Source: Polyangia bacterium
Lineage (GTDB): Bacteria > Myxococcota_A > Polyangia > Fen-1088
Assembly: GCA_035549075.1 (NCBI GenBank)
Contig: DASZRT010000151.1
Span: forward strand, 26,693-90,692
Direction of reading: 5' to 3'
DNA: 64,000 nt
Shown here: in pieces, positions 3,189 to 57,326 of the stretch
How the letters are laid out: every line of letters begins with the position of its first letter
Position numbering within the stretch: position 1 is the first letter of the stretch
Made by a program: the position numbers and the translations under genes
The notes under the pieces: model-generated
What the model saw: the letters and a program-made list of their open reading frames with translations, nothing else
What the model was told of the DNA's origin: nothing
The model's database searches: none

Positions 3189-3941
3189 TCAGGCCGGCGC
3201 GCGCAGGTGCAGCAGAAACTCGACGTTGCCCTTGCCGCCCGTGATGGGCGAGACGGTGTCGCCGCGCGCCTCGTAGCCGAGCTCGACGGCGGCGGCGCGC
3301 ACCTCGTCGAGCGCCCGCGCGCGCGCCGCCTCGTCACGCACGATGCCGCCCTTGCCGATTTTCTCGCGCCCCACCTCAAACTGCGGCTTGACGAGCGCGA
3401 CGACGGGAGCGCCCGGCTTCGCAAAGACGATGAGCGCGGGCAGCACGAGCTTGAGCGAGATGAACGACACGTCGATGACGACGAGGTCGACGCGCGCCGG
3501 CAGCAGATCGGGCGGGGCGAGGCGGATGTTCACGCGGTCGAGCACCCGCACGCGCGCGTCCGAGGCGATCTTCCAATCGAGCTGCCCGTGCCCCACGTCG
3601 ACGCACGTGACGTGCGCCGCCCCGCGCTGGAGCAGGCAGTCCGTGAAGCCGCCCGTCGACGCGCCGACGTCCAGCGCCGTCAGCCCACGCGGGTCGACGC
3701 CGAACGCGTCGAGCGCGTGCGCGAGCTTGAGCCCGCCGCGCGACACGTACGGCATGGGCGCCGACCGCAGCCGCAGCTCCGCGCCCTCGTCGACCAAATC
3801 GCCCGCCTTTTCCACGGGCCGGTCACCCGCGAGCACCTCGCCCGCGAGGATGAGCGCCCGCGCCTTCTCGCGCGACGGCGCGAGCCCCTGCTCGACGAGC
3901 GCGAGGTCCGCGCGCGTCCGACGCGGCTTGGCGGAGGCCAT
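3189..3941 (-). CDS. tlyA: TlyA-family rRNA 2'-O-methyltransferase (hemolysin A-like)
   Basis: S4-like N-terminus (RADLALVEQGLAPSREKARALILAGEV) and FtsJ-like MTase core (LDVGASTGGFTD). ATG at 3941; an alternative TTG start lies at 3947. Confidence 0.9.
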   Translation of the reverse strand: MASAKPRRTRADLALVEQGLAPSREKARALILAGEVLAGDRPVEKAGDLVDEGAELRLRSAPMPYVSRGGLKLAHALDAFGVDPRGLTALDVGASTGGFTDCLLQRGAAHVTCVDVGHGQLDWKIASDARVRVLDRVNIRLAPPDLLPARVDLVVIDVSFISLKLVLPALIVFAKPGAPVVALVKPQFEVGREKIGKGGIVRDEAARARALDEVRAAAVELGYEARGDTVSPITGGKGNVEFLLHLRAPA

Positions 3942-4027: not shown

Positions 4028-4103
4028 GGGGCTTTAGCTCAGCTGGGAGAGCGCCTGAATCGCACTCAGGAGGCCGACGGTTCGATCCCGTTAAGCTCCA
4101 CCA
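4028..4103 (+). tRNA. tRNA-Ala (anticodon CGC)
   Basis: Cloverleaf folds: acceptor GGGGCUU/AAGCUCC with a G3:U70 wobble (the Ala identity element), anticodon loop AUCGCAC, T-loop GGUUCGAUCC, encoded CCA end. Confidence 0.85.
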
Positions 4104-13822: not shown

Positions 13823-14375
13823 CGATCGGGCTCGCTCGCTGCCGCTCGCCTCGCGATGCGGGGCGACACGGGCTCGCTTGCTTCGCAAGCATCGCGGCTC
13901 GTCTCCGGTCGCTGGGCTGGCCGTGTTTGGGGATGCGTCCGCGCTCCGCGGCTCGGGCGGGCCCGACACGGCGCCAGCGGGTGTGAGGACGAAGGGGCCC
14001 TGGAAGCTCCGCGCGGCCGAGTCCCCGAACCCCTCCAGCACTGCACTCGCTACGTTCTGCCGTCGAAGTCAGGCAGGGCTCGCCGATGTTCGAGCCGCGC
14101 GCTCCAATTGTGGCGGTATCGGCCGACCTTCGAAGGCGAGACGTAGAAAGCGCGAGCGGACGGGTTTGGGGATGCGGCTGGGCGGAGCTTCCAGGCCCCT
14201 TCGACCTCACACCCGCTGGCGCCGTGCCGGGCCCGCCCGAGCCGCGGAGCCCAGACGCATCCCCAAACCCGGCCAGCCCAGCGACCGGAGACGAGCCGCG
14301 ATGCTTGCGAAGCAAGCGAGCCCGTGTCGCCCCGCATCGCGAGGCGAGCGGCAGCGAGCGAGCCCGATCGAATTG
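13823..14375. repeat. Large imperfect inverted repeat with arms 13823-14012 and 14183-14375 (about 90% complementary) around a ~170-bp spacer carrying a third partial copy of the TTTGGGGATGCG core; REP/MITE-like or structured-RNA element
   Basis: The reverse complement of 13823-13905 matches 14293-14375 almost exactly (terminal CGATCGGGCTCGCTCGC). Mirror-image ORFs on both strands translate to near-identical peptides (MLRKHRGSSPVAGLA...). An internal GCTTGCttcGCAAGC hairpin is present. Confidence 0.75.
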
Positions 14376-20995: not shown

Positions 20996-21936
20996 GGCAG
21001 CGGCACCGCGAGGCCGAGCGCCGCCGTGACCGACACCGGCGCGGGCGAGAACACCGTGCTCTGCGCGCCCTCGATCGCGAACGTCGGGCGCTCGAACGCG
21101 GCGGCGCCCTCGATCGTCGCGACGAGCGCGAGGTGCGACGACAGCCGGCGCTCGGCGCCCGCGCCGAGCCACGCCGTCTCCCACCACGCCGTCGCGCCGT
21201 TGGTCTCGGCGACGCCGACGCCGTTCGCGCGCGTGCGGTCGACGTCGCCGCCCGCGCACAGGCGCGCGCGCCAGCGGCCGCGCTCGGTCCAGCCGCAGAG
21301 GCCCGCGCCGAACGAAAGCAATTCGAAATCGCCGCCCGCGCCCGCGCCACCGACGGTGGCGCGCGTGCTCGCCGGGAAGATCGTGCCACGCGCGACGAAC
21401 GCGAGGTGCTCACCGCCGAGCGTCGCCTCGACGCGCGCGCCGAGCGCAGCGTGCGGCAACGCGCCGAGCGCCGCGACGCCCGACGCCGCGAGCGCGCCGC
21501 GCACATTCATCGGAGGCGGGGACGCGGGCGCTTCGATCACGGGCGCGAAGCCACCGCCCGCCTGACCGCGTTCGATCGCTGGCGCGTCGTCGGCGGCCGA
21601 GTGCTCCTCGACGGTCACGAGCGCCGCGATGACGAGCCCCAGCGTCGCCCACCGCTCGGCCGGCGCGTCGTTGGCGCGGAACGACAGATCGCGACGTACG
21701 GGCGCGCGCGCGGGCTCGCTGGGATCCGCCAGCTCGACGGTCGCCGCGCCGTCACCCGCGGACGCGACGCGCGCTTGCCAGCACGAGGCGCCGCGATCGG
21801 CGGACTCGGGCAGAACGATGCGGCAACGGCCGACGCCGAGGATCTCGCTGCAACGTCGCTCGAGCGCGGCGCGCGGCGCGTCGGCGGCGACTGGTCCGGC
21901 GATCTCGACGGCTACACAGGCCTGGGGCGCGACCAT
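20992..21936 (-). CDS. Hypothetical membrane-anchored protein (314 aa) cotranscribed with ECF sigma/FecR
   Basis: ATG at 21936 with a GGAGAGG RBS, 12 nt after the FecR stop. One TM segment (WATLGLVIAALVTV). The C-terminus is beta-strand-like (alternating hydrophobics). Confidence 0.55.
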   Translation of the reverse strand: MVAPQACVAVEIAGPVAADAPRAALERRCSEILGVGRCRIVLPESADRGASCWQARVASAGDGAATVELADPSEPARAPVRRDLSFRANDAPAERWATLGLVIAALVTVEEHSAADDAPAIERGQAGGGFAPVIEAPASPPPMNVRGALAASGVAALGALPHAALGARVEATLGGEHLAFVARGTIFPASTRATVGGAGAGGDFELLSFGAGLCGWTERGRWRARLCAGGDVDRTRANGVGVAETNGATAWWETAWLGAGAERRLSSHLALVATIEGAAAFERPTFAIEGAQSTVFSPAPVSVTAALGLAVPLP

Positions 21937-28662: not shown

Positions 28663-29631
28663 ATGTCGCGGGCGAGCCGCACCGGTTGGAGCCGACGCGA
28701 GGCCGTGACGGCGCTCGCAGGCGCGGGCGTCGCCGTCGGTTGCGACAAGCTGTGGCACGCGCCGACGAAATCGCTCGCGGCGGCTTCGCGCGAGCGCGAG
28801 GTCGTCAACGTCGTCGACGCGCAGCCGACGATCGAGGGCGCGGGCGTTCACCTGCGGCGCTCGCTCGGGTCGCGCGCGCTGCCGCTGCTCGATCCCTTCC
28901 TCATGCTCGACGAGTTCCACTCGGATCGTCCCGAGGACTACCTGCCCGGCTTCCCGAGCCACCCGCACCGCGGCTTCGAGACGGTGACGTACATGCTCGA
29001 GGGCGCCGTCGAGCACCGCGACAGCCTCGGCAACCACGGCCACCTGGGCCCGGGTTGCGCGCAGTGGATGACCGCCGGCCACGGCATCATCCACTCGGAG
29101 ATGCCGGTCGAAGAGCGCACGAGCCCGCGCATGTGGGGCTTCCAGCTGTGGGTCAACCTGCCGGCGGCGAAGAAGCTGATCGCGCCGCGCTATCAGGATC
29201 TGCCGCCCGCGCGCATCCCCGAGGTCGACGTCGACGACGGCCGCATCCGGCTCGTCGCGGGAACCATCGGCGGCGCGGTTGGGCCCGTCAGCGGCATCGT
29301 CACGGCGCCGCAGATGTTCGAGGTGAAGCTCGGGCGGCGCGGCTCCGTGCGCCACGACGTGCCCACGTCGCACAACGCGTTCGTCTACGTCTTCGACGGC
29401 GAGGCGCAGCTGGGACCGGCGCGCACGAAGGTCGGCGCGGGCCAGCTCGCCGTGCTCGGCCCGGGCGAGCGCCTCGTCGCGCGCGCCGAGACGTCGGCGC
29501 GTTTGCTCTCGTTCGCGGGCGCGCCCATCGGCGAGCCCGTCGCGCGCTACGGTCCGTTCGTCATGAACACCGAGGACGAGCTGCGCCAGGCCGTCGACGA
29601 CTACCGCTCGGGCCGCCTGACCTTGCTCTGA
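28663..29631 (+). CDS. Pirin-family bicupin (quercetinase-like) with a Tat-type signal
   Basis: SRREAVTALAGAGVAVGC Tat/lipobox-like leader. Pirin metal-ligand motif HPHRGFETVTYMLEG...H. Confidence 0.85.
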   Translation: MSRASRTGWSRREAVTALAGAGVAVGCDKLWHAPTKSLAAASREREVVNVVDAQPTIEGAGVHLRRSLGSRALPLLDPFLMLDEFHSDRPEDYLPGFPSHPHRGFETVTYMLEGAVEHRDSLGNHGHLGPGCAQWMTAGHGIIHSEMPVEERTSPRMWGFQLWVNLPAAKKLIAPRYQDLPPARIPEVDVDDGRIRLVAGTIGGAVGPVSGIVTAPQMFEVKLGRRGSVRHDVPTSHNAFVYVFDGEAQLGPARTKVGAGQLAVLGPGERLVARAETSARLLSFAGAPIGEPVARYGPFVMNTEDELRQAVDDYRSGRLTLL

Positions 29632-29649
29632 TCGCGCGCGCGATCAGAG
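29626..29649. promoter_or_regulatory. Perfect 24-bp palindrome CTCTGATCGCGCG|CGCGATCAGAG overlapping the pirin stop codon; terminator or EBP/operator site
   Basis: Exactly self-complementary 24-mer, 77 nt upstream of the sigma-54 activator gene. Confidence 0.4.
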
Positions 29650-29725
29650 CAAGGGTCCGTCGCCCATCCGCGGGAGAGTCCGTCGTCCGTTGCCGCGTAC
29701 GCCCGCGATCGACTAACGTCGATGC

Positions 29726-31138: not shown

Positions 31139-32906
31139 CGCCCGCGAGCATGCGCGCCATCAGGGCCTCGGCCAGCCCCGCGCCGCCGCCCGCGCCCGAG
31201 ACGGCGACGTCGGGCACGACCTTGATGTTGCGCTCGCCGACGATGGTCGCGATCTGCATCGCCGTGTAGGCCTCGGGGCCGAGCGCGTCCTTGCCGTCTC
31301 GGTAGGCCTGCGCGCGCGCCGCGCCCAGCGCGCGCGTCGCATCGGCCTGCGCCTCGGCCTCGAGCCGCGTCGCCGCCGCGTTGCCCTTGGCTGCCTCGGC
31401 CGCCGCCTGCGCGTTCTGCGTCGCGATGCGCACCATCTGCTCGCTGCGCACGACCTCGGCCTGCAGCTCGGCGACGGCGCGCTCGCGCTCGAGCTCCTGC
31501 CGCTTCTCTTGCGACTCGCGCTGCACGTCGTACGTCCTCTTGAGCTCGTCGGCGATCTTGCGGTCGGTCTGCGTCTTCATGAGCTCGGGCGGCGGCACGA
31601 TGTCGCCGATGAGCGTGTCGATGCACTCGACGTCGTAGGCCTCGACGGCGCGCCCGATCGCGGCCTTGGCCTCGTGCTGGCGCTGGCTGCGCGCCGACAG
31701 GAAGTCGAGCACGGTCACCTCCTGCGCGCTGTTGCGGAAGTAGTTGCCCACCGTCGGCTGCAAGACGTGATCGACGAGGTTCTGCATCGAGCCGACGCGC
31801 GAGATCACGCGCGGCGCGTTCTTGGCGGCGACGTGGATGATCTGCGCGACGTCGAGCGAGAACGAGAAGCCGTCCTTCGACCGCACGAGGATCGACGACA
31901 AGCGCTCGTCGTATTGATGCGCCTCCGTGCGCTCGGCCCAGTTGAGGACGATGTTGGTCGTCGGCACGAGCTCGACCTTCATGACCTCGGTGTTGAGCGG
32001 GTGCTTGCCGGGCAGCAGCGGCTCGACCCACACGCCCTTGCGGCCCTTCTCGACGAGATCGCCGTGCGTGAAATCGGCGCCCGAGACGTCGACGTGCTCG
32101 CGACCGACGTAGCTGACGACGACGCCGACGTAGCCAATGGGGATCTCGATCATGCGCACGAGCTTCACCTCGACGAACCACGGGTTGAGGTTCCACGAGC
32201 CCGCGAGCAGCACGTCCTCCTGCAGGCCGCGGCACCCGCCCGCGTCGATGAACTTCTGGCCACGCTGGAAGCTGTCGTGGTCGGCGACGGGCGGGCCCGC
32301 GAGATCGCCCGTGGGCAGCGGGCGGCCGTCGAGGACGGTCACGATGCCGACGGCCTCGGCCGGCACCTGGCGCACGCGCAGCGACGTCGCGTCGACGCCA
32401 TGGCGCTGCGCCGAGCGCGTCGTGATGACCTCGAACAGCGCGGGGTTGATGCGGTAGCTGCCGGCCGTGAGGAAGCCGAGCTGGCGGCCGCGCTCGCCGC
32501 CGCGGCGCAGGAAGGCCTCGGCGTCCTGGTAGTCGTTGCACGCGACCTCTTTGCCGAGGATGCGCTCGGCGGGGATGGGCGCGCCGTCAGCGGCGACGAC
32601 GAGGGCGATCTCGCCCGCGGGCACGACGAGCAGCGGCACCTTGACGACGGTGTACTGCCACCGAAACGGGATGAAGTGCCACCCGGGCGCGAGCAGCCGC
32701 GCTTGGTAGCCGGCCTCGCCCGCGAGCGCGACGAGCCGCCCCGACGCGAGCGGCGGCCCGTACTTTTTTACGACGAGGCCCGATTGGTCCTCGCGGATGA
32801 TCCAGGTGCTGCTGAGGATCACGGCGGCGGCGAACATGAGGGCCGCGAAGACGGCGTAGAACCGCCCATCCGAGAGCAGGGACGAGAACAGCGTGGTCAG
32901 TGTCAT
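31095..32906 (-). CDS. SPFH/band-7 flotillin-like protein (YqiK-like) with a long C-terminal coiled coil
   Basis: An internal ATG at 32906 with an AGGAGG RBS gives MTLTTLFSSLL + TM segment. SPFH domain followed by EKRQELERERAVAELQAEVV coiled coil. Its 3' end overlaps the convergent EBP gene by 44 bp. Confidence 0.8.
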   Translation of the reverse strand: MTLTTLFSSLLSDGRFYAVFAALMFAAAVILSSTWIIREDQSGLVVKKYGPPLASGRLVALAGEAGYQARLLAPGWHFIPFRWQYTVVKVPLLVVPAGEIALVVAADGAPIPAERILGKEVACNDYQDAEAFLRRGGERGRQLGFLTAGSYRINPALFEVITTRSAQRHGVDATSLRVRQVPAEAVGIVTVLDGRPLPTGDLAGPPVADHDSFQRGQKFIDAGGCRGLQEDVLLAGSWNLNPWFVEVKLVRMIEIPIGYVGVVVSYVGREHVDVSGADFTHGDLVEKGRKGVWVEPLLPGKHPLNTEVMKVELVPTTNIVLNWAERTEAHQYDERLSSILVRSKDGFSFSLDVAQIIHVAAKNAPRVISRVGSMQNLVDHVLQPTVGNYFRNSAQEVTVLDFLSARSQRQHEAKAAIGRAVEAYDVECIDTLIGDIVPPPELMKTQTDRKIADELKRTYDVQRESQEKRQELERERAVAELQAEVVRSEQMVRIATQNAQAAAEAAKGNAAATRLEAEAQADATRALGAARAQAYRDGKDALGPEAYTAMQIATIVGERNIKVVPDVAVSGAGGGAGLAEALMARMLAGANGNGGASSSNAKS

Positions 32907-40380: not shown

Positions 40381-41870
40381 TGCGGCAGGCGCAGCGCGAG
40401 CATGGCGTCGATCGTCGATTGAGGGACTTGCGACGGCAGGCCCGGCAACAGCGTCGCGATGGAGGCCGGCACGGCGTCCGGGTGAACGAGCGCGAGCTGC
40501 ACGGTGCGCGAGGCGACGTCGTACAGCGCGATGAAGTAGCGGTACCCCGTCGCGGGGCGGCGGAACGCCGCGCCCACGCTCGTCTTGTTGACGACGGCGC
40601 CGGCGGCGGCTTCGGTGTTGCCCGTCTTCTTGTTGACGAGGTCGACGGACGCCGGCAGCGCCGAGACGTCGCACTTCGTGCCGCACGGGCCCTCGCCCAC
40701 GTAGCCACCGTAGCCGAAGAAGTTGGTGCTGATGATGTCGAGGTTCTTCGAGGTGTTCTTGTCGTTGACGACCTCGAAGGCGTTCAGCTGGCCGCAGCCG
40801 TCCCCCGAGTAGTTGGCGGTCGCCGGAGGCACCGGCGGGTACGAGTAACACTGGCACGAGTTGTAGAGGCCTTGGCGCACGAGCTCACCGTGGCTGATGC
40901 CGATCCAAGGCGCGTCGTACCAGCCGTCGGTCGCGTCGTTCTTGCAGTTCTGCGCGTTCGTGATCGCGCCCGATCCGTAGTGCGGCATGGTCGCGAGGAT
41001 GATGAACATCTTCGAGCCCGACCAGCCGTAGTCCTTGCTCTTGCCGGCGCCCGGCGCGGGGCAATACGGATCGCTGCCCGGGCCACAGGGGAACGCCATC
41101 CCCGACGAGACGTCGACGAAGCAGTCGTTGCCGACGACGCCCGTGAGACCGGTCGTGCCAGGCGTCATCGGCCCGCCCGAGAACGTCATGTTCGTCGCGG
41201 CCGTCGGGCTGCGCGCGTCCCACGACGACGCCAGCTTCCATGTGCCCGTGAGGCCCGAGACCGGCTGGTAGACGGCGAACTGCTTGACCAGCATCGGGCC
41301 GCGCAACGACACGGCGAGCTCTTCGTCCCAGGGCGTGAGCTGCGTACCGGTGATGACCTTGTTCGTGAGGCAGCACGTGACGTTGCCCTTGGAGTCGGTG
41401 GTCTTCTGCACGTCGCACGGGCCGACGGCGGGATCGCGTCGCGTCGGGTACATACCGGCGGCGCCGATCATGGGGAAGGTGATCGTAGCGCCGTCGGAGA
41501 CGGGCCCCGCGGCGAGGCCGGGATACGGACCGAGGCCGCCGCCCGCGCCAGGCGCGCCGCCGCTCCCCGTCGCGCCGCCCGAAGCCGTCGTGCCGCCGCT
41601 GCCCGGCGTGCCTCCGCTGCCGGTTGTACCGCCCGGCGCCGTCGTGCCGCCGCCGCCGGTCATGCCCCCGCCGCTCGACGTCGTGCCGCCGCGGCCCGGC
41701 GAGCCGCCGGTGCCACCGCTCGCGTGGCCGCCCGCGCCGCCCGTCGTTCCGCCGCCGCCGGACGATCCGCTGGTGCCGCCGCTGGCGCCCGTCGTGCCGC
41801 CACCGCCGCCGCACGCCGCGAGGCTCAACACGGCTCCCAAGACCATCGCGAGCGTCGTTTGACTTTTCAT
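40377..41870 (-). CDS. Secreted Cys/Gly/Tyr-rich lipoprotein, hypothetical (497 aa)
   Basis: An internal ATG gives MKSQTTLAMVLGAVLSLAAC. About 110 aa of GG(T/S) linker, then a Cys-rich globular domain. Convergent with the previous gene; their stops share CTAG. Confidence 0.7.
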   Translation of the reverse strand: MKSQTTLAMVLGAVLSLAACGGGGGTTGASGGTSGSSGGGGTTGGAGGHASGGTGGSPGRGGTTSSGGGMTGGGGTTAPGGTTGSGGTPGSGGTTASGGATGSGGAPGAGGGLGPYPGLAAGPVSDGATITFPMIGAAGMYPTRRDPAVGPCDVQKTTDSKGNVTCCLTNKVITGTQLTPWDEELAVSLRGPMLVKQFAVYQPVSGLTGTWKLASSWDARSPTAATNMTFSGGPMTPGTTGLTGVVGNDCFVDVSSGMAFPCGPGSDPYCPAPGAGKSKDYGWSGSKMFIILATMPHYGSGAITNAQNCKNDATDGWYDAPWIGISHGELVRQGLYNSCQCYSYPPVPPATANYSGDGCGQLNAFEVVNDKNTSKNLDIISTNFFGYGGYVGEGPCGTKCDVSALPASVDLVNKKTGNTEAAAGAVVNKTSVGAAFRRPATGYRYFIALYDVASRTVQLALVHPDAVPASIATLLPGLPSQVPQSTIDAMLALRLPH

Positions 41871-55295: not shown

Positions 55296-56129
55296 GTGCC
55301 TCCCTCGCTGATAGCGCCCGAGCTCGCGCGCGCGATCCTCGCGAGCTCGGGGCCGATCGTTTTCCTCACGGGCGCCGGGGTCTCCGCCGAGAGCGGCGTC
55401 CCGACGTTCCGCGGGCCCGAGGGCTACTGGCGCGTCGGATCGCGCAACTATCAGGCGACGGACCTCGCGACGGCCGAGGCCTTCGCGCGCATGCCCGACG
55501 AGGTCTGGCGCTGGTACCTCTACCGTCGCGGCGTGTGCCGCGCCGCCGAGCCGAACGCCGCGCACCTCGCGCTCGTCGAGGCCGAGCGGCGCTTCGGCGA
55601 GCGCTTCCTGCTCGTCACGCAGAACGTCGACGGGTTGCACGCGCGCGCCGGCAACACGGCCGCGCGCACGTACCGCATCCACGGCGATCTCGATCTGTGC
55701 CGCTGCGCCGACGGCTGCGCGCCGGCCGTGCGGCCCATGCCCGCTGCGATCGCGGTGGCGTGGGCCAAGGATCGCGTGCTCGACGACGACGCACGCGCCG
55801 CGCTCCACTGCGACTGCGGCGCGTGGCTGCGCCCGCACGTGCTGTGGTTCGACGAGGCGTACGACGAGCCGCTCTTTCGTTACCTCTCGGCGCGGCGCGC
55901 AGCCGGTGCGGCGGCCGCGCTCGTCGTCATCGGCACGAGTGGCGCGACCAACTTGCCCGCGCAGATGTGCGCGATCGTCGCCGCGCGCGCGGCGCCGCTC
56001 ATCGTGGTCGATCCCGATCCAGCGGCCTACGGCGCCGTCGCGGGCCGAGGCACGCGCGGTGTCCAGATCGTCGGCGGCGCCTGCGCCACCGTCCCCCCGC
56101 TCGTCGACGCACTCCTCGCGGCCGCCTAA
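55296..56129 (+). CDS. cobB: Sir2-family NAD-dependent protein deacylase (CobB-like)
   Basis: GAGVSAESGVPTFRG, QNVDGLH, zinc-ribbon cysteines CRC..C / CDC, GTSGA. Confidence 0.85.
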   Translation: MPPSLIAPELARAILASSGPIVFLTGAGVSAESGVPTFRGPEGYWRVGSRNYQATDLATAEAFARMPDEVWRWYLYRRGVCRAAEPNAAHLALVEAERRFGERFLLVTQNVDGLHARAGNTAARTYRIHGDLDLCRCADGCAPAVRPMPAAIAVAWAKDRVLDDDARAALHCDCGAWLRPHVLWFDEAYDEPLFRYLSARRAAGAAAALVVIGTSGATNLPAQMCAIVAARAAPLIVVDPDPAAYGAVAGRGTRGVQIVGGACATVPPLVDALLAAA

Positions 56130-56143
56130 CCACCTCTCATCAT

Positions 56144-56666
56144 CCGTCACCTCTCGCCGGAGGATCCTCCTTTTGTCGGGCGGCGGGCGCTCGCGGGAAC
56201 GGGTCCTGCCGCTGCGGGGTCCTCCCCGCTGAGTCTTTTTCCCTCGTTCACCGTCGTGGTTCTGATGCTCTGATCAACCGGCAGCTGATCCCCATGGACT
56301 GCCTCGGGAAAAAGCCTCATCGGGGTCCCCCCCCTTCGCGTCACCCGTTCCCGCTCGCTTCCCGCCGCCGGCACGACGAACCCGATCCCGCCAAACTGGA
56401 TGCGGCCATGACGGACCTAAATCGGGACGATCGGGTCGTGTTGTCGGCGGGGTGTAGCCCGTGGAACGGGTGGCAGTGAGGGAAGGGGCCCGCTGAAGCT
56501 TTTTTTCGCGAGTCCATGGGGATCCGTCCGCTCGCAGCGACGAGCACGAGTCCCTCGAGGCCCGAAAAAAAGTTCAGTGGGAAGGGATCGCCGAGCTGAC
56601 AGGACCCGTTCCGCGGGATGCACCCCGCCCTCACCCGGAGAACCGTCCGCAGGCGAGAGGTGACGG
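56144..56666. repeat. ~520-bp noncoding element: two diverged head-to-head inverted copies (~250 bp each) of a unit, bounded by perfect 15-bp terminal inverted repeats (CCGTCACCTCTCGCC / GGCGAGAGGTGACGG). Multiple internal hairpins; lower GC with A/T runs. MITE-like or structured-RNA candidate.
   Basis: Shared ordered blocks in both arms: GGAACGGGTCCTG, GATCCCCATGGACT, GAAAAA(A)AGCnTCAnCGGG, CACCCGTTCC. The 12-bp palindrome GGAGGATCCTCC is present. There are four copies of GGAACGGGT, in both orientations. The ORFs in this interval lack coding periodicity. Confidence 0.65.
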
Positions 56667-56681
56667 AAGACGAGAGCCTAG

Positions 56682-57326
56682 TTAGCGCACCAAGTGGACG
56701 TTGAACATGGGCGTTTGCAGCGCGCCCATGAGGCGCACCCACAGGATCACGAACATCTCCTGGCCGCGCGCCGCCGAGAGATCGCCGAGATCGTGGACGG
56801 TCTTCCAGCCGAACCAGCCCTCGAGGATCTCCTTCACCTTGCCCTTGGCGCCCGCGTCGTTGCCGCACAGGAATGCGTCGTGCGCGCCCGCGAGGAGCGA
56901 CGGGTTCACCATGAGCTTGCAGTTCATCGTGTTGAGCGCCTTGACGACCTTCGTCTCGGGCAGCGCGCGCTGGATCTGCTCGGCCAGCGAGTCGGTGTTG
57001 GCGACCGACAGCGACGGCGGCATGCCCTTCGAAAAGTCGAGCGGGTTCGTGACGTCGATCAGCACCTTACCGGCGAGGCCCTTCGCCGCCGCTTGCGTCG
57101 CCGGGAGCGCGCCCACGCCCGACGTGCAGTTGAACGCCAGCTCGCCGAAGGCCGCGGCGTCGGCGAAGGTGCCCTGCGAGGCCTTCGGGCCCGCCGCCTT
57201 CACCCACTCGGCCGCCTTCGCGTTGTCGGCGGTGCGCGAGCCCATCTTCACTTCGTGGCCGAGCTCCACGAGCTTCGTCGCGATGGTGTTCCCGACCATT
57301 CCCGTTCCGAGAACTGCGATTTTCAT
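56682..57326 (-). CDS. NAD(P)-binding oxidoreductase of the F420_oxidored / NADPH-dependent F420 reductase (Npd)-like family
   Basis: MKIAVLGTGMVGNTIATKL Rossmann motif; 214 aa. Confidence 0.8.
   Translation of the reverse strand: MKIAVLGTGMVGNTIATKLVELGHEVKMGSRTADNAKAAEWVKAAGPKASQGTFADAAAFGELAFNCTSGVGALPATQAAAKGLAGKVLIDVTNPLDFSKGMPPSLSVANTDSLAEQIQRALPETKVVKALNTMNCKLMVNPSLLAGAHDAFLCGNDAGAKGKVKEILEGWFGWKTVHDLGDLSAARGQEMFVILWVRLMGALQTPMFNVHLVR

What the first reader, a model, noticed from the sequence alone, without database searches (positions are those of the whole stretch)
56144..56666. ~520-bp structured noncoding element: inverted dimer with 15-bp perfect terminal inverted repeats
Between the convergent sirtuin and F420_oxidored genes lies a region of unusually low GC with T/A runs. 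It is bounded by the perfect inverted repeats CCGTCACCTCTCGCC...GGCGAGAGGTGACGG. The interior consists of two diverged inverted copies of a ~250-bp unit with conserved blocks (GGAACGGGTCCTG, GATCCCCATGGACT, GAAAAAAGCnTCAnCGGG, CACCCGTTCC). There are also nested hairpins: a GGAGGATCCTCC palindrome, and 4 copies of GGAACGGGT in both orientations. This fits either a non-autonomous transposable element (MITE) inserted as a head-to-head dimer, or a large structured RNA. I see no similarity to RNase P, tmRNA, 6S or SRP RNA.
Basis: seen in the sequence. Interest (0 to 1): 0.65.

Follow-up and report, generated by a model that had tools for sequence, protein, structure and literature searches.

The report
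Decaying nested DNA palindrome between genes
The flagged 543-bp stretch is a real but orphan and mutationally decaying DNA palindrome, present between two convergent genes in one Polyangia (myxobacterial) lineage and absent from its relatives; it most likely acts only as a two-way transcription stop, and nothing supports a structured RNA gene.

Summary
Window 56134-56676 is a 543-bp imperfect palindrome (self-inverted BLAST E 1e-21; fold z about -11 on both strands). It fills the space between the stop codons of a SIR2 gene and an F420_oxidored gene.

- **Structure:** it is nested. Four ~136-bp quarters in + - + - orientation are all related, which implies two rounds of inverted duplication. 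Each carries GGAACGGGT and a terminator-like ...CTGAnnCTTTTT tail.
- **Decay:** the arms are 77% identical. Mismatches show no wobble or transition bias and no strand bias. The "perfect 15-bp TIR" is no longer than chance allows at that identity.
- **Insertion:** two syntenic relatives have an empty site, with the two stop codons overlapping by 8 nt.
- **No homologue:** none in Rfam, 185,579 genomes, JGI metagenomes, IMG/VR, plasmids, phages, 720 kb of related loci or 5.8 billion proteins (six-frame query).
- **Second palindrome:** a 548-bp palindrome of unrelated sequence lies at 13823-14370.

Best reading: an orphan foldback insertion, MITE-like but with mobility unproven, that serves at most as a bidirectional terminator. 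No evidence supports an RNA gene. Interest is low to moderate.

The parts
56134..56676 (.). E1: the whole 543-bp imperfect nested palindrome, centred near 56405
   Evidence: Self-inverted BLAST E 1.5e-21. Arms are 77% identical. Fold z is -11.3 and -11.6.
56144..56158 (+). Left copy of the perfect 15-nt inverted repeat CCGTCACCTCTCGCC
   Evidence: The run length is not exceptional at this arm identity (P = 0.23).
56652..56666 (-). Right copy of the perfect 15-nt inverted repeat
56134..56270 (+). Quarter q1. Its core unit u1 is 56174-56243, with GGAACGGGT at 56196-56204 and T5 at 56236-56240
   Evidence: Quarter alignments give q1-q4 z 11.5, q1-q2 z 6.7 and q1-q3 z 5.6. Unit alignments are A2 and A3.
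56271..56405 (-). Quarter q2. Its core unit u2 is 56306-56373, with GGAACGGGT at 56343-56351 on the - strand and a T5 on the - strand (A5 at 56309-56313)
   Evidence: q2-q3 z 9.7..
56406..56541 (+). Quarter q3. Its core unit u3 is 56441-56507, with GGAACGGGT at 56463-56471 and T7 at 56500-56506
56542..56676 (-). Quarter q4. Its core unit u4 is 56565-56635, with GGAACGGGT at 56604-56612 on the - strand and a T7 on the - strand (A7 at 56565-56571)
   Evidence: q3-q4 z 6.5..
56214..56240 (+). Intrinsic-terminator-like site 85 nt after the SIR2 stop: GCGGGG-TCCT-CCCCGC, then TGAGTC, then TTTTT
   Evidence: This is the only terminator-like site in 55900-56900. It resembles other hairpin-plus-T5/6 sites in the window, such as those at 32764 and 43742.
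56159..56170 (.). GGAGGATCCTCC, a 12-nt perfect palindrome followed by TTTTG
56287..56300 (+). GATCCCCATGGACT, a 14-nt perfect block; its mirror copy is at 56511-56524
   Evidence: (I13).
56511..56524 (-). Mirror copy of GATCCCCATGGACT
55296..56129 (+). SIR2-family gene. Its stop codon TAA lies 4 nt before the palindrome
   Evidence: Pfam PF02146, E 1.2e-28. The C-terminus is conserved to the last residues in relatives.
56682..57326 (-). F420_oxidored / NAD(P)-binding gene. Its stop codon lies 5 nt after the palindrome
   Evidence: Pfam PF03807, E 2e-12. The C-terminus ...FNVHLVR* is conserved in relatives.

Best explanation
E1 is a lineage-specific piece of palindromic ("foldback") DNA. It entered a site where the stop codons of two convergent genes overlapped in the ancestor.

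- **How it was built (inferred from the similarity hierarchy):** two successive inverted duplications of a ~136-bp module. The module contains GGAACGGGT and a terminator-like "G/C hairpin ...CTGAnnCTTTTT" tail. The first duplication gave a 272-bp foldback monomer. The second gave the 543-bp head-to-head dimer.
- **Its state now (shown):** it has been decaying by ordinary mutation.
- **Its nature (inferred):** it behaves like a non-autonomous foldback or MITE-like insertion whose mobility is not demonstrated. It is not an RNA gene.
- **Its present effect (inferred):** if it has one, it is a bidirectional transcription stop or insulator. Each convergent transcript meets, about 85-110 nt after its stop codon, a sense-oriented terminator-like module (u1 for SIR2, u4 for F420_oxidored) and then a second one (u3, u2). 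Any read-through RNA can fold into a long hairpin.

Shown: the palindrome, its nesting, its absence from relatives, its non-coding and orphan status, and the neutral-looking decay. Inferred: the mode of insertion, the order of duplications, and the terminator role.
For: - **Real palindrome:**
- **Nested quarters all related:** q1-q4 z 11.5, q2-q3 z 9.7, q1-q2 z 6.7, q3-q4 z 6.5, q1-q3 z 5.6. The non-palindromic block GATCCCCATGGACT lies next to u2 and u3. That placement shows the last duplication was inverted, not direct.
- **Empty site in both syntenic relatives:** L008 (GCA_038325725.1) and L093 (GCA_028287125.1) have the order PurL...F420_oxidored / SIR2-OEP-RND. Their two stop codons overlap by 8 nt (GCTACCTGACGACG), and both proteins are conserved to their C-termini. 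The ~550 bp is therefore absent from both, and insertion in this lineage is the simplest reading.
- **No coding signal:** no Pfam hit for internal ORFs. Six-frame translations match nothing among 5.8 billion proteins.
- **Neutral-looking decay:** 26 transitions against 32 transversions, 33 gap columns, G.U-compatible mismatches 11 against 15 on the two strands, and a longest perfect run that is not exceptional.
- **Terminator-like features:** the + strand site at 56214-56240. Four of the window's 16 A/T runs of 5 or more are here, one per unit and always at the unit's 3' end, including the only two runs of 7. Other hairpin-plus-T5/6 sites exist in this window.
- **Comparable cases:** a 193-bp imperfect palindrome exactly fills the gap between two convergent ORFs in an unrelated soil contig (L083 3927-4119). 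A second long palindrome is in this window.
- **Assembly behaviour:** short-read assemblies of the same organism break inside E1 but not inside the much stronger hairpin E2. This is compatible with extra similar copies or variants in the sample.
Against: - **Mobility is unproven.** There is no second copy in the 64-kb window.
- **No match elsewhere.** A pattern that fits all four units found only one hit in 185,579 genomes, a Zixiibacteriota contig that I take to be a chance match. It found none in JGI metagenomes and none in IMG/VR. nhmmer found nothing in 720 kb of related loci. Plasmids and phages gave nothing.
- **No clear target-site duplication.** The only candidate is CCTAA at 56125-56129 against CCTAG at 56677-56681. 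It is offset by 4 nt on the left, and a match of that kind is expected by chance about one time in five (my estimate).
- **No transposase gene** among the ORFs I scanned next to E1 or E2.
- **Terminator role only partly backed.** Only u1 has a canonical hairpin. The simple scan found no terminator on the - strand, and single units fold no better than shuffles.
- **The source genome outside about 67 kb could not be searched.**
Confidence: 0.5

Rival explanations
1. Palindrome made in place. A short stretch of non-mobile DNA was captured or arose between the two genes. It was then doubled twice by replication template-switching or fold-back priming. No transposition was ever involved, and the element is a neutral by-product.
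For: - The two-level similarity hierarchy is what successive inverted duplications predict.
- E1 is an orphan in every search.
- There is no target-site duplication.
- The same window holds a second palindrome, E2, of unrelated sequence (z < 2). This suggests the genome makes or tolerates long palindromes.
- E2 has 101 perfect outer base pairs and a diverged centre. That is the pattern expected when central asymmetry stabilises a young palindrome (general knowledge of long-palindrome instability in bacteria).
Against: - The ancestral site had no spacer at all, because the stop codons overlap in L008 and L093. At least the first ~136-270 bp therefore had to come from elsewhere.
- Neither arm resembles the flanking genes or anything else in the window. 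Fold-back copying of local sequence would leave such a resemblance.
- The palindrome ends 4-5 nt from both stop codons, which an untargeted duplication does not predict.
Confidence: 0.22
2. Functional RNA. E1 is transcribed as one long hairpin RNA (an RNase III substrate or antisense regulator), or as up to four small RNAs that each end at a T-run.
For: - The predicted fold is very stable, z about -11.
- Each unit ends in a T-run, as a Rho-independent terminator does.
- GGAACGGGT is kept exactly in all four units although they have otherwise diverged by about 30%.
Against: - No Rfam family matches, even at E <= 10.
- Both strands fold equally well, as any DNA palindrome does.
- Arm mismatches are not enriched for transitions or G.U pairs, and they show no strand bias.
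- Single units have no significant structure, z -1.3 to +0.6. The consensus fold is only -8.1 kcal/mol, with a covariation term of 0.25 kcal/mol that gives no support.
- No sigma-70-like promoter was found.
- No homologue exists in relatives, and the site is empty in the nearest ones.
Confidence: 0.12
3. DNA-level protein-binding array, analogous to BIME/REP clusters. The four GGAACGGGT-containing units in alternating orientation would bind a nucleoid protein, gyrase or a regulator, or would extrude a cruciform.
For: - There are four exact GGAACGGGT copies within 417 bp, against 0.45 expected in 64 kb.
- The + - + - arrangement at gene 3' ends recalls BIMEs (general knowledge; REP dimers are described in PMC3733652).
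Against: - The units are ~136 bp, not 20-40 bp.
- They carry no GTAG or CGTC-tagged stem-loop of the REP type (PMC3733652).
- REP and BIME sequences are multi-copy. The only other GGAACGGGT in the window (25082) lies outside any unit, and nhmmer with the unit profile found no other unit in the window.
- The exact cores are fully explained by common descent of the four quarters.
Confidence: 0.08
4. Assembly artefact: a fold-back chimera created by the assembler or the sequencing library.
For: Short-read contigs of the same organism end inside E1. Six of the seven differences between those contigs and the window lie inside E1.
Against: - The two independent contigs of MAG GCA_964589105.1 together cover all of E1, with 1 and 5 mismatches respectively.
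- Artefactual fold-backs are perfect palindromes. E1's arms differ at 23% of aligned positions and also carry indels.
Confidence: 0.03

Closest known systems
Foldback-type bacterial MITEs and imperfect-palindrome intergenic repeats (ERIC, Correia/NEMIS, RUP, YPAL; reviewed in PMC3184786)
   Same: - Small and non-coding.
- The entire length folds into a long hairpin.
- Sits at gene 3' ends.
- Shows presence/absence between relatives.
- Can supply terminators.
   Different: - Those families are defined by many copies per genome, recognisable terminal repeats shared with an IS element, and target-site duplications. None of these was found here.
- At 543 bp, E1 is larger than ERIC, Correia, RUP and YPAL (about 100-170 bp, from general knowledge).
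- E1 is a palindrome of palindromes.
BIMEs: clusters of REP sequences in alternating orientation (REP families in PMC3733652)
   Same: - Repeated units in alternating orientation.
- Lies between genes at their 3' ends.
- Proposed roles in termination or mRNA stabilisation.
   Different: - REP units are 20-40 bp GC-rich stem-loops with GTAG or CGTC tags, and they occur tens to thousands of times per genome.
- E1's units are ~136 bp, untagged, and seen only at this locus.
Bidirectional intrinsic terminators between convergent genes
   Same: - Palindromic DNA that fills the gap between two convergent stop codons.
- A/T runs flank GC-rich stems.
- The + strand site at 56214-56240 fits the hairpin-plus-T-run consensus.
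   Different: - Ordinary terminators have stems of about 5-20 bp (general knowledge).
- E1 has ~270-nt arms and four modules, and only one of them is a canonical hairpin plus T-run.
E2, the second long palindrome in the same window (13823-14370)
   Same: - Almost the same length, 548 bp against 543 bp.
- A full-length palindrome that starts 3 nt after a stop codon.
- Orphan and non-coding.
- Absent upstream of the TetR operon in the relatives examined.
   Different: - No sequence similarity to E1 (z < 2).
- Not nested.
- Arms are 90% identical, with 101 perfect outer base pairs.
- GC content is 72.6%, with no A/T runs.
- It lies between tandem genes, not convergent ones.

Membership tests
MITE (miniature inverted-repeat transposable element) | Terminal inverted repeats | tested here: met
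   15 nt are perfect, and 31 nt match at 87%. These are only the outer end of a full-length palindrome and are not exceptional in length.
MITE (miniature inverted-repeat transposable element) | Target-site duplication flanking the element | tested here: inconclusive
   No clean direct repeat is present. The only candidate is CCTAA (56125-56129) against CCTAG (56677-56681), offset by 4 nt on the left. I estimate a match like this arises by chance about 20% of the time.
MITE (miniature inverted-repeat transposable element) | Multiple dispersed copies in the genome | tested here: inconclusive
   - No copy in the 64-kb window or in 720 kb of related loci.
- No true hit in 185,579 genomes, JGI metagenomes or IMG/VR with the unit pattern.
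- No hit in 5.8 billion proteins with a six-frame query.
- The rest of the source genome could not be searched.
MITE (miniature inverted-repeat transposable element) | Small (under about 600 bp) with no coding capacity | tested here: met
   The element is 543 bp. Internal ORFs have no Pfam hit and no protein homologue. Indels between units do not preserve a reading frame.
MITE (miniature inverted-repeat transposable element) | Presence/absence polymorphism (empty sites) | tested here: met
   L008 and L093 have overlapping stop codons and no spacer.
MITE (miniature inverted-repeat transposable element) | A parent IS or transposase with matching ends | not testable with these tools
   The ORFs I scanned beside E1 and E2 include no transposase. 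The whole genome is not available.
REP / BIME | 20-40 bp GC-rich stem-loop units with a GTAG or CGTC tag | tested here: not met
   The units are ~136 bp with no tagged 8-13-bp stem. The REP definition is taken from PMC3733652.
REP / BIME | High copy number in intergenic regions | tested here: not met
   The unit profile found no other copy in the 64-kb window or in related loci.
Structured RNA family (Rfam) | Match to a curated covariance model | tested here: not met
   Nothing reached a gathering score. The best sub-threshold hit inside E1 (Actinomyces-1) had E 7.1, and the best in the scanned stretch (chrB-a, inside the SIR2 gene) had E 2.1; both are consistent with chance matches.
Structured RNA family (Rfam) | Covariation that supports conserved base pairs | tested here: inconclusive
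   There are no homologues to compare. Within the element, mismatches show no wobble or strand bias, and the four-unit consensus has 0.25 kcal/mol of covariation energy.
Intrinsic (Rho-independent) terminator | GC-rich hairpin followed directly by a U-tract, downstream of a gene | tested here: met
   This is met on the + strand only: 56214-56229 plus T5 at 56236-56240, 85 nt after the SIR2 stop. Nothing passed the scan on the - strand.

The most novel reading that the evidence does not exclude
Two palindromes of unrelated sequence have almost the same length, 543 and 548 bp. Both abut stop codons and both lie within 42 kb of each other in one Polyangia genome. The most novel reading is that they are products of a length-defined mechanism that makes or inserts palindromes. 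Examples would be integration of snap-back or hairpin DNA of fixed size, or an unrecognised mobile system that copies arbitrary ~270-bp segments head-to-head. On this reading E2 is a young insertion and E1 an old one.
Probability: 0.08. Interest if true: 0.6.

Novelty: new member of a known kind. Interest (0 to 1): 0.25.

Why it matters
If the reading is right, E1 is an ordinary piece of genome debris, with one mildly useful lesson. A compact convergent gene pair with overlapping stop codons acquired a 543-bp palindrome. That palindrome now provides terminator-like modules in both directions.

E1 also shows how long hairpin elements break short-read MAG assemblies, so such elements are under-represented in MAG-based catalogues.

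The only feature that could raise its importance is the second palindrome of the same size and unrelated sequence. If a genome-wide census found many ~545-bp palindromes in this lineage, that would point to an undescribed mechanism for generating them.

Tried and rejected
**Searches that found nothing**
- Rfam at gathering score and at E <= 10: nothing.
- A pattern that fits all four units, GGAACGGGT-N-CCCRMTGARNYTTTTT: one hit in 185,579 genomes, a Zixiibacteriota contig that I take to be a chance match; none in JGI metagenomes; none in IMG/VR with a looser version.
- nhmmer with the unit profile and blastn of E1 and E2 against 88 loci (720 kb) of related genomes: only the same organism's own contigs.
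- blastn in distant mode against plasmids and phages: none.
- Concatenated six-frame translations of E1, plus the + strand frames of E2, against 5.8 billion proteins, to catch spurious ORF calls on hidden copies: none.

**Hypotheses tested and dropped**
- "Four small-RNA paralogues": single units fold no better than shuffles, and the consensus is weak.
- "E1 and E2 belong to one family": global alignments give z < 2.
- "Conserved blocks mark functional sites": the run-length test gives P = 0.23.
- "Hairpins alone explain the assembly breaks": E2, a far stronger hairpin at -554 kcal/mol, is assembled through and is 100% identical in the same MAG.
- Inversion polymorphism as the source of the contig differences: only 6 scattered differences were seen, not the roughly 23% that swapping the arms would give.

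**Leads that went nowhere**
- Literature searches for myxobacterial MITEs or long palindromes returned nothing specific.
- The third contig break, near 41.7 kb, is a low-complexity Gly-rich coding repeat and is unrelated.
- The weak palindrome signal at 21088-21232 lies inside coding sequence.

Full report
**What is there**

The interval lies between a SIR2-family gene (55296-56129, + strand; PF02146, E 1.2e-28) and an F420_oxidored / NAD(P)-binding gene (56682-57326, - strand; PF03807, E 2e-12). The genes converge, and the 552-bp spacer is almost entirely one imperfect palindrome, 56134-56676.

- It starts 4 nt after one stop codon and ends 5 nt before the other.
So are all the other blocks it listed, and the four GGAACGGGT copies at 56196(+), 56343(-), 56463(+) and 56604(-). 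Only 0.45 copies are expected in the whole window.
- The interval matches its own reverse complement with E about 1e-21.
- It folds with z about -11 on either strand.
- GC content is only mildly low: 65.6% against 70.5%, the 8th percentile. The element does hold 4 of the window's 16 A/T runs of 5 or more, including both runs of 7.

Each half is itself an imperfect palindrome. Cutting the element into four ~136-bp quarters and orienting them + - + - shows that all four are related:

| Pair | z-score |
|---|---|
| q1-q4 | 11.5 |
| q2-q3 | 9.7 |
| q1-q2 | 6.7 |
| q3-q4 | 6.5 |
| q1-q3 | 5.6 |
| q2-q4 | 2.4 |

(alignments)

- The hierarchy fits two successive inverted duplications: 136 to 272 to 543 bp.
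- The non-palindromic block GATCCCCATGGACT lies next to the two inner quarters, so the last step was an inverted duplication and not a direct one.
- Each quarter carries TGTCGGCGG..., then GGAACGGGT, then a G-run/C-run segment, then CTGAnnC plus T5-7.

**Is the pairing maintained?**

The evidence suggests it is not.

- The arms are 77% identical: 197 matches, 58 mismatches and 33 gap columns.
- Mismatches split into 26 transitions and 32 transversions. Those that would still allow G.U pairs number 11 on the + strand RNA and 15 on the - strand RNA.
- The longest perfect run, the 15-nt "TIR", is matched or exceeded in 23% of shuffles of the match vector.
- Single units fold no better than shuffled sequence, z -1.3 to +0.6. 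Their consensus structure is weak, at -8.1 kcal/mol with a covariation term of 0.25.
- No Rfam family matches, even at E <= 10.

This is what a DNA palindrome decaying by ordinary mutation looks like. It is not the signature of a selected RNA structure.

**Origin**

The organism is an uncultured Polyangia (Myxococcota) bacterium, according to the names that sources give to the flanking proteins.

- Both syntenic relatives that keep the F420_oxidored / SIR2-OEP-RND order have no spacer at all. These are L008 from GCA_038325725.1 and L093 from GCA_028287125.1, with flanking proteins 78-81% identical.
- In both, the two stop codons overlap by 8 nt (GCTACCTGACGACG), and both proteins are conserved to their last residues.
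- Other relatives have different genes at this position.
- E1 is therefore absent from both relatives. Insertion in this lineage, into a site that had no intergenic DNA, is the simplest reading, so at least its founding sequence came from elsewhere.

**Search for relatives**

Nothing similar was found anywhere:

- the rest of the window;
- 185,579 species-representative genomes, JGI metagenomes and IMG/VR, using a pattern that fits all four units; the single genome hit, in a Zixiibacteriota contig, I take to be a chance match;
- 720 kb of loci from related bacteria;
- plasmids and phages;
- 5.8 billion predicted proteins, queried with six-frame translations.

The source genome beyond about 67 kb could not be searched. 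Copy number in that genome is the main open point.

No convincing target-site duplication exists. The only candidate is CCTAA / CCTAG, offset by 4 nt. The ORFs I scanned next to E1 and E2 include no transposase.

**Assembly behaviour**

- In a short-read MAG of the same organism (GCA_964589105.1), two contigs end inside E1, at 56637 and 56337. In Logan contigs of SRR12170511, the two contigs end at 56199 and 56614.
- Six of the seven differences between the MAG contigs and the window fall inside E1.
- The same MAG assembles straight through the much stronger hairpin E2 with 100% identity. Hairpin strength alone therefore does not explain the breaks.
- Extra similar copies, strain variants or low coverage all remain possible.

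**A second palindrome**

A scan of the window found E2 at 13823-14370.

- It is 548 bp and starts 3 nt after the stop codon of a DUF1552 (HXXSHH) gene. It ends just upstream of the promoter region of a TetR-MFS-MFP operon.
- Its arms are 90% identical, with 101 perfect outer base pairs and a diverged centre. The fold is -554 kcal/mol, z -35.
- It is not nested.
- It has no sequence similarity to E1, z < 2.
- Relatives of the TetR operon have only about 90-145 bp upstream.
- Palindromes this long are rare in the relatives sampled. None of 300 bp or more was found in about 720 kb, and the few there are about 65-230 bp. One of them, 193 bp long, also fills exactly the gap between two convergent ORFs (L083).

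**Most likely mechanism**

I conclude that E1 is an orphan foldback insertion, MITE-like in form but with unproven mobility. It was built by two inverted duplications of a terminator-like module and is now decaying (confidence 0.5).

Its likely present effect is termination in both directions.

- The SIR2 transcript meets GCGGGG-TCCT-CCCCGC ... TTTTT at 56214-56240. This is the only terminator-like site found by the scan.
- That site resembles other hairpin-plus-T-run sites in this genome.
- By symmetry, the F420_oxidored transcript meets u4 and its T7 about 110 nt after its stop codon, although no canonical hairpin precedes that run.
- A second sense-oriented module follows on each strand.

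**Rivals**

| Explanation | Confidence |
|---|---|
| Palindrome formed in place, without mobility | 0.22 |
| Functional long-hairpin RNA or small RNAs | 0.12 |
| BIME-like protein-binding array | 0.08 |
| Assembly artefact | 0.03 |

The artefact reading is contradicted by the diverged arms and by the MAG contigs that together cover the element.

**Verdict**

The element is a new example of a known kind, long imperfect intergenic palindromes or foldback repeats, and is of low to moderate interest. The one unexplained point is why two palindromes of unrelated sequence in the same 64 kb have nearly the same length.

Noticed in passing
window 13823-14370: A second long palindrome (E2), 548 bp. Its arms are 90% identical, with 101 perfect outer base pairs and a diverged centre, and it folds at -554 kcal/mol. 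It starts 3 nt after the stop codon of a DUF1552/HXXSHH gene and ends just upstream of a TetR-MFS-MFP operon. It has no sequence similarity to the finding but almost the same length. It is open in one frame on each strand (185 codons) but has no protein homologues.
   Followed up: partly
window 56337-56637 (loci L002, L003, L004, L005): Short-read assemblies of the same organism (MAG GCA_964589105.1 and Logan SRR12170511) all break inside the finding. Six of the seven base differences between the MAG contigs and the window lie inside it, at 56402, 56419, 56445, 56446, 56511 and 56546. The cause is unresolved and could be extra copies, strain variants or low-coverage contig tips.
   Followed up: partly
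window about 41520-41820: A GC-rich, low-complexity coding repeat, Gly-rich on the - strand, coincides with another contig break in the short-read MAG (between contigs 50 and 87, near 41668-41723).
   Followed up: partly
L083 3927-4119: A 193-bp imperfect palindrome (73% identity) exactly fills the gap between two convergent ORFs (ending at 3896 and 4125) in an unrelated soil metagenome contig. A 228-bp palindrome lies between divergent ORFs in L061 (10562-10789).
   Followed up: partly
window 29621-29654: A perfect 34-nt palindrome, CCTTGCTCTGATCGCGCGCGATCAGAGCAAGG. Its context was not examined.
   Followed up: no
L006 13159-13709; L094 1196-1885: The slot between F420_oxidored and the OEP-RND efflux operon varies among relatives. 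L006 and L007 have an unknown ~214-221-aa gene plus a periplasmic-binding-protein gene in place of SIR2, and L006 also has a ParE/Phd toxin-antitoxin pair. L094 has an extra 229-aa gene between F420_oxidored and SIR2.
   Followed up: no
window 4028-4100: A tRNA gene, the only Rfam match in the window at gathering score.
   Followed up: no
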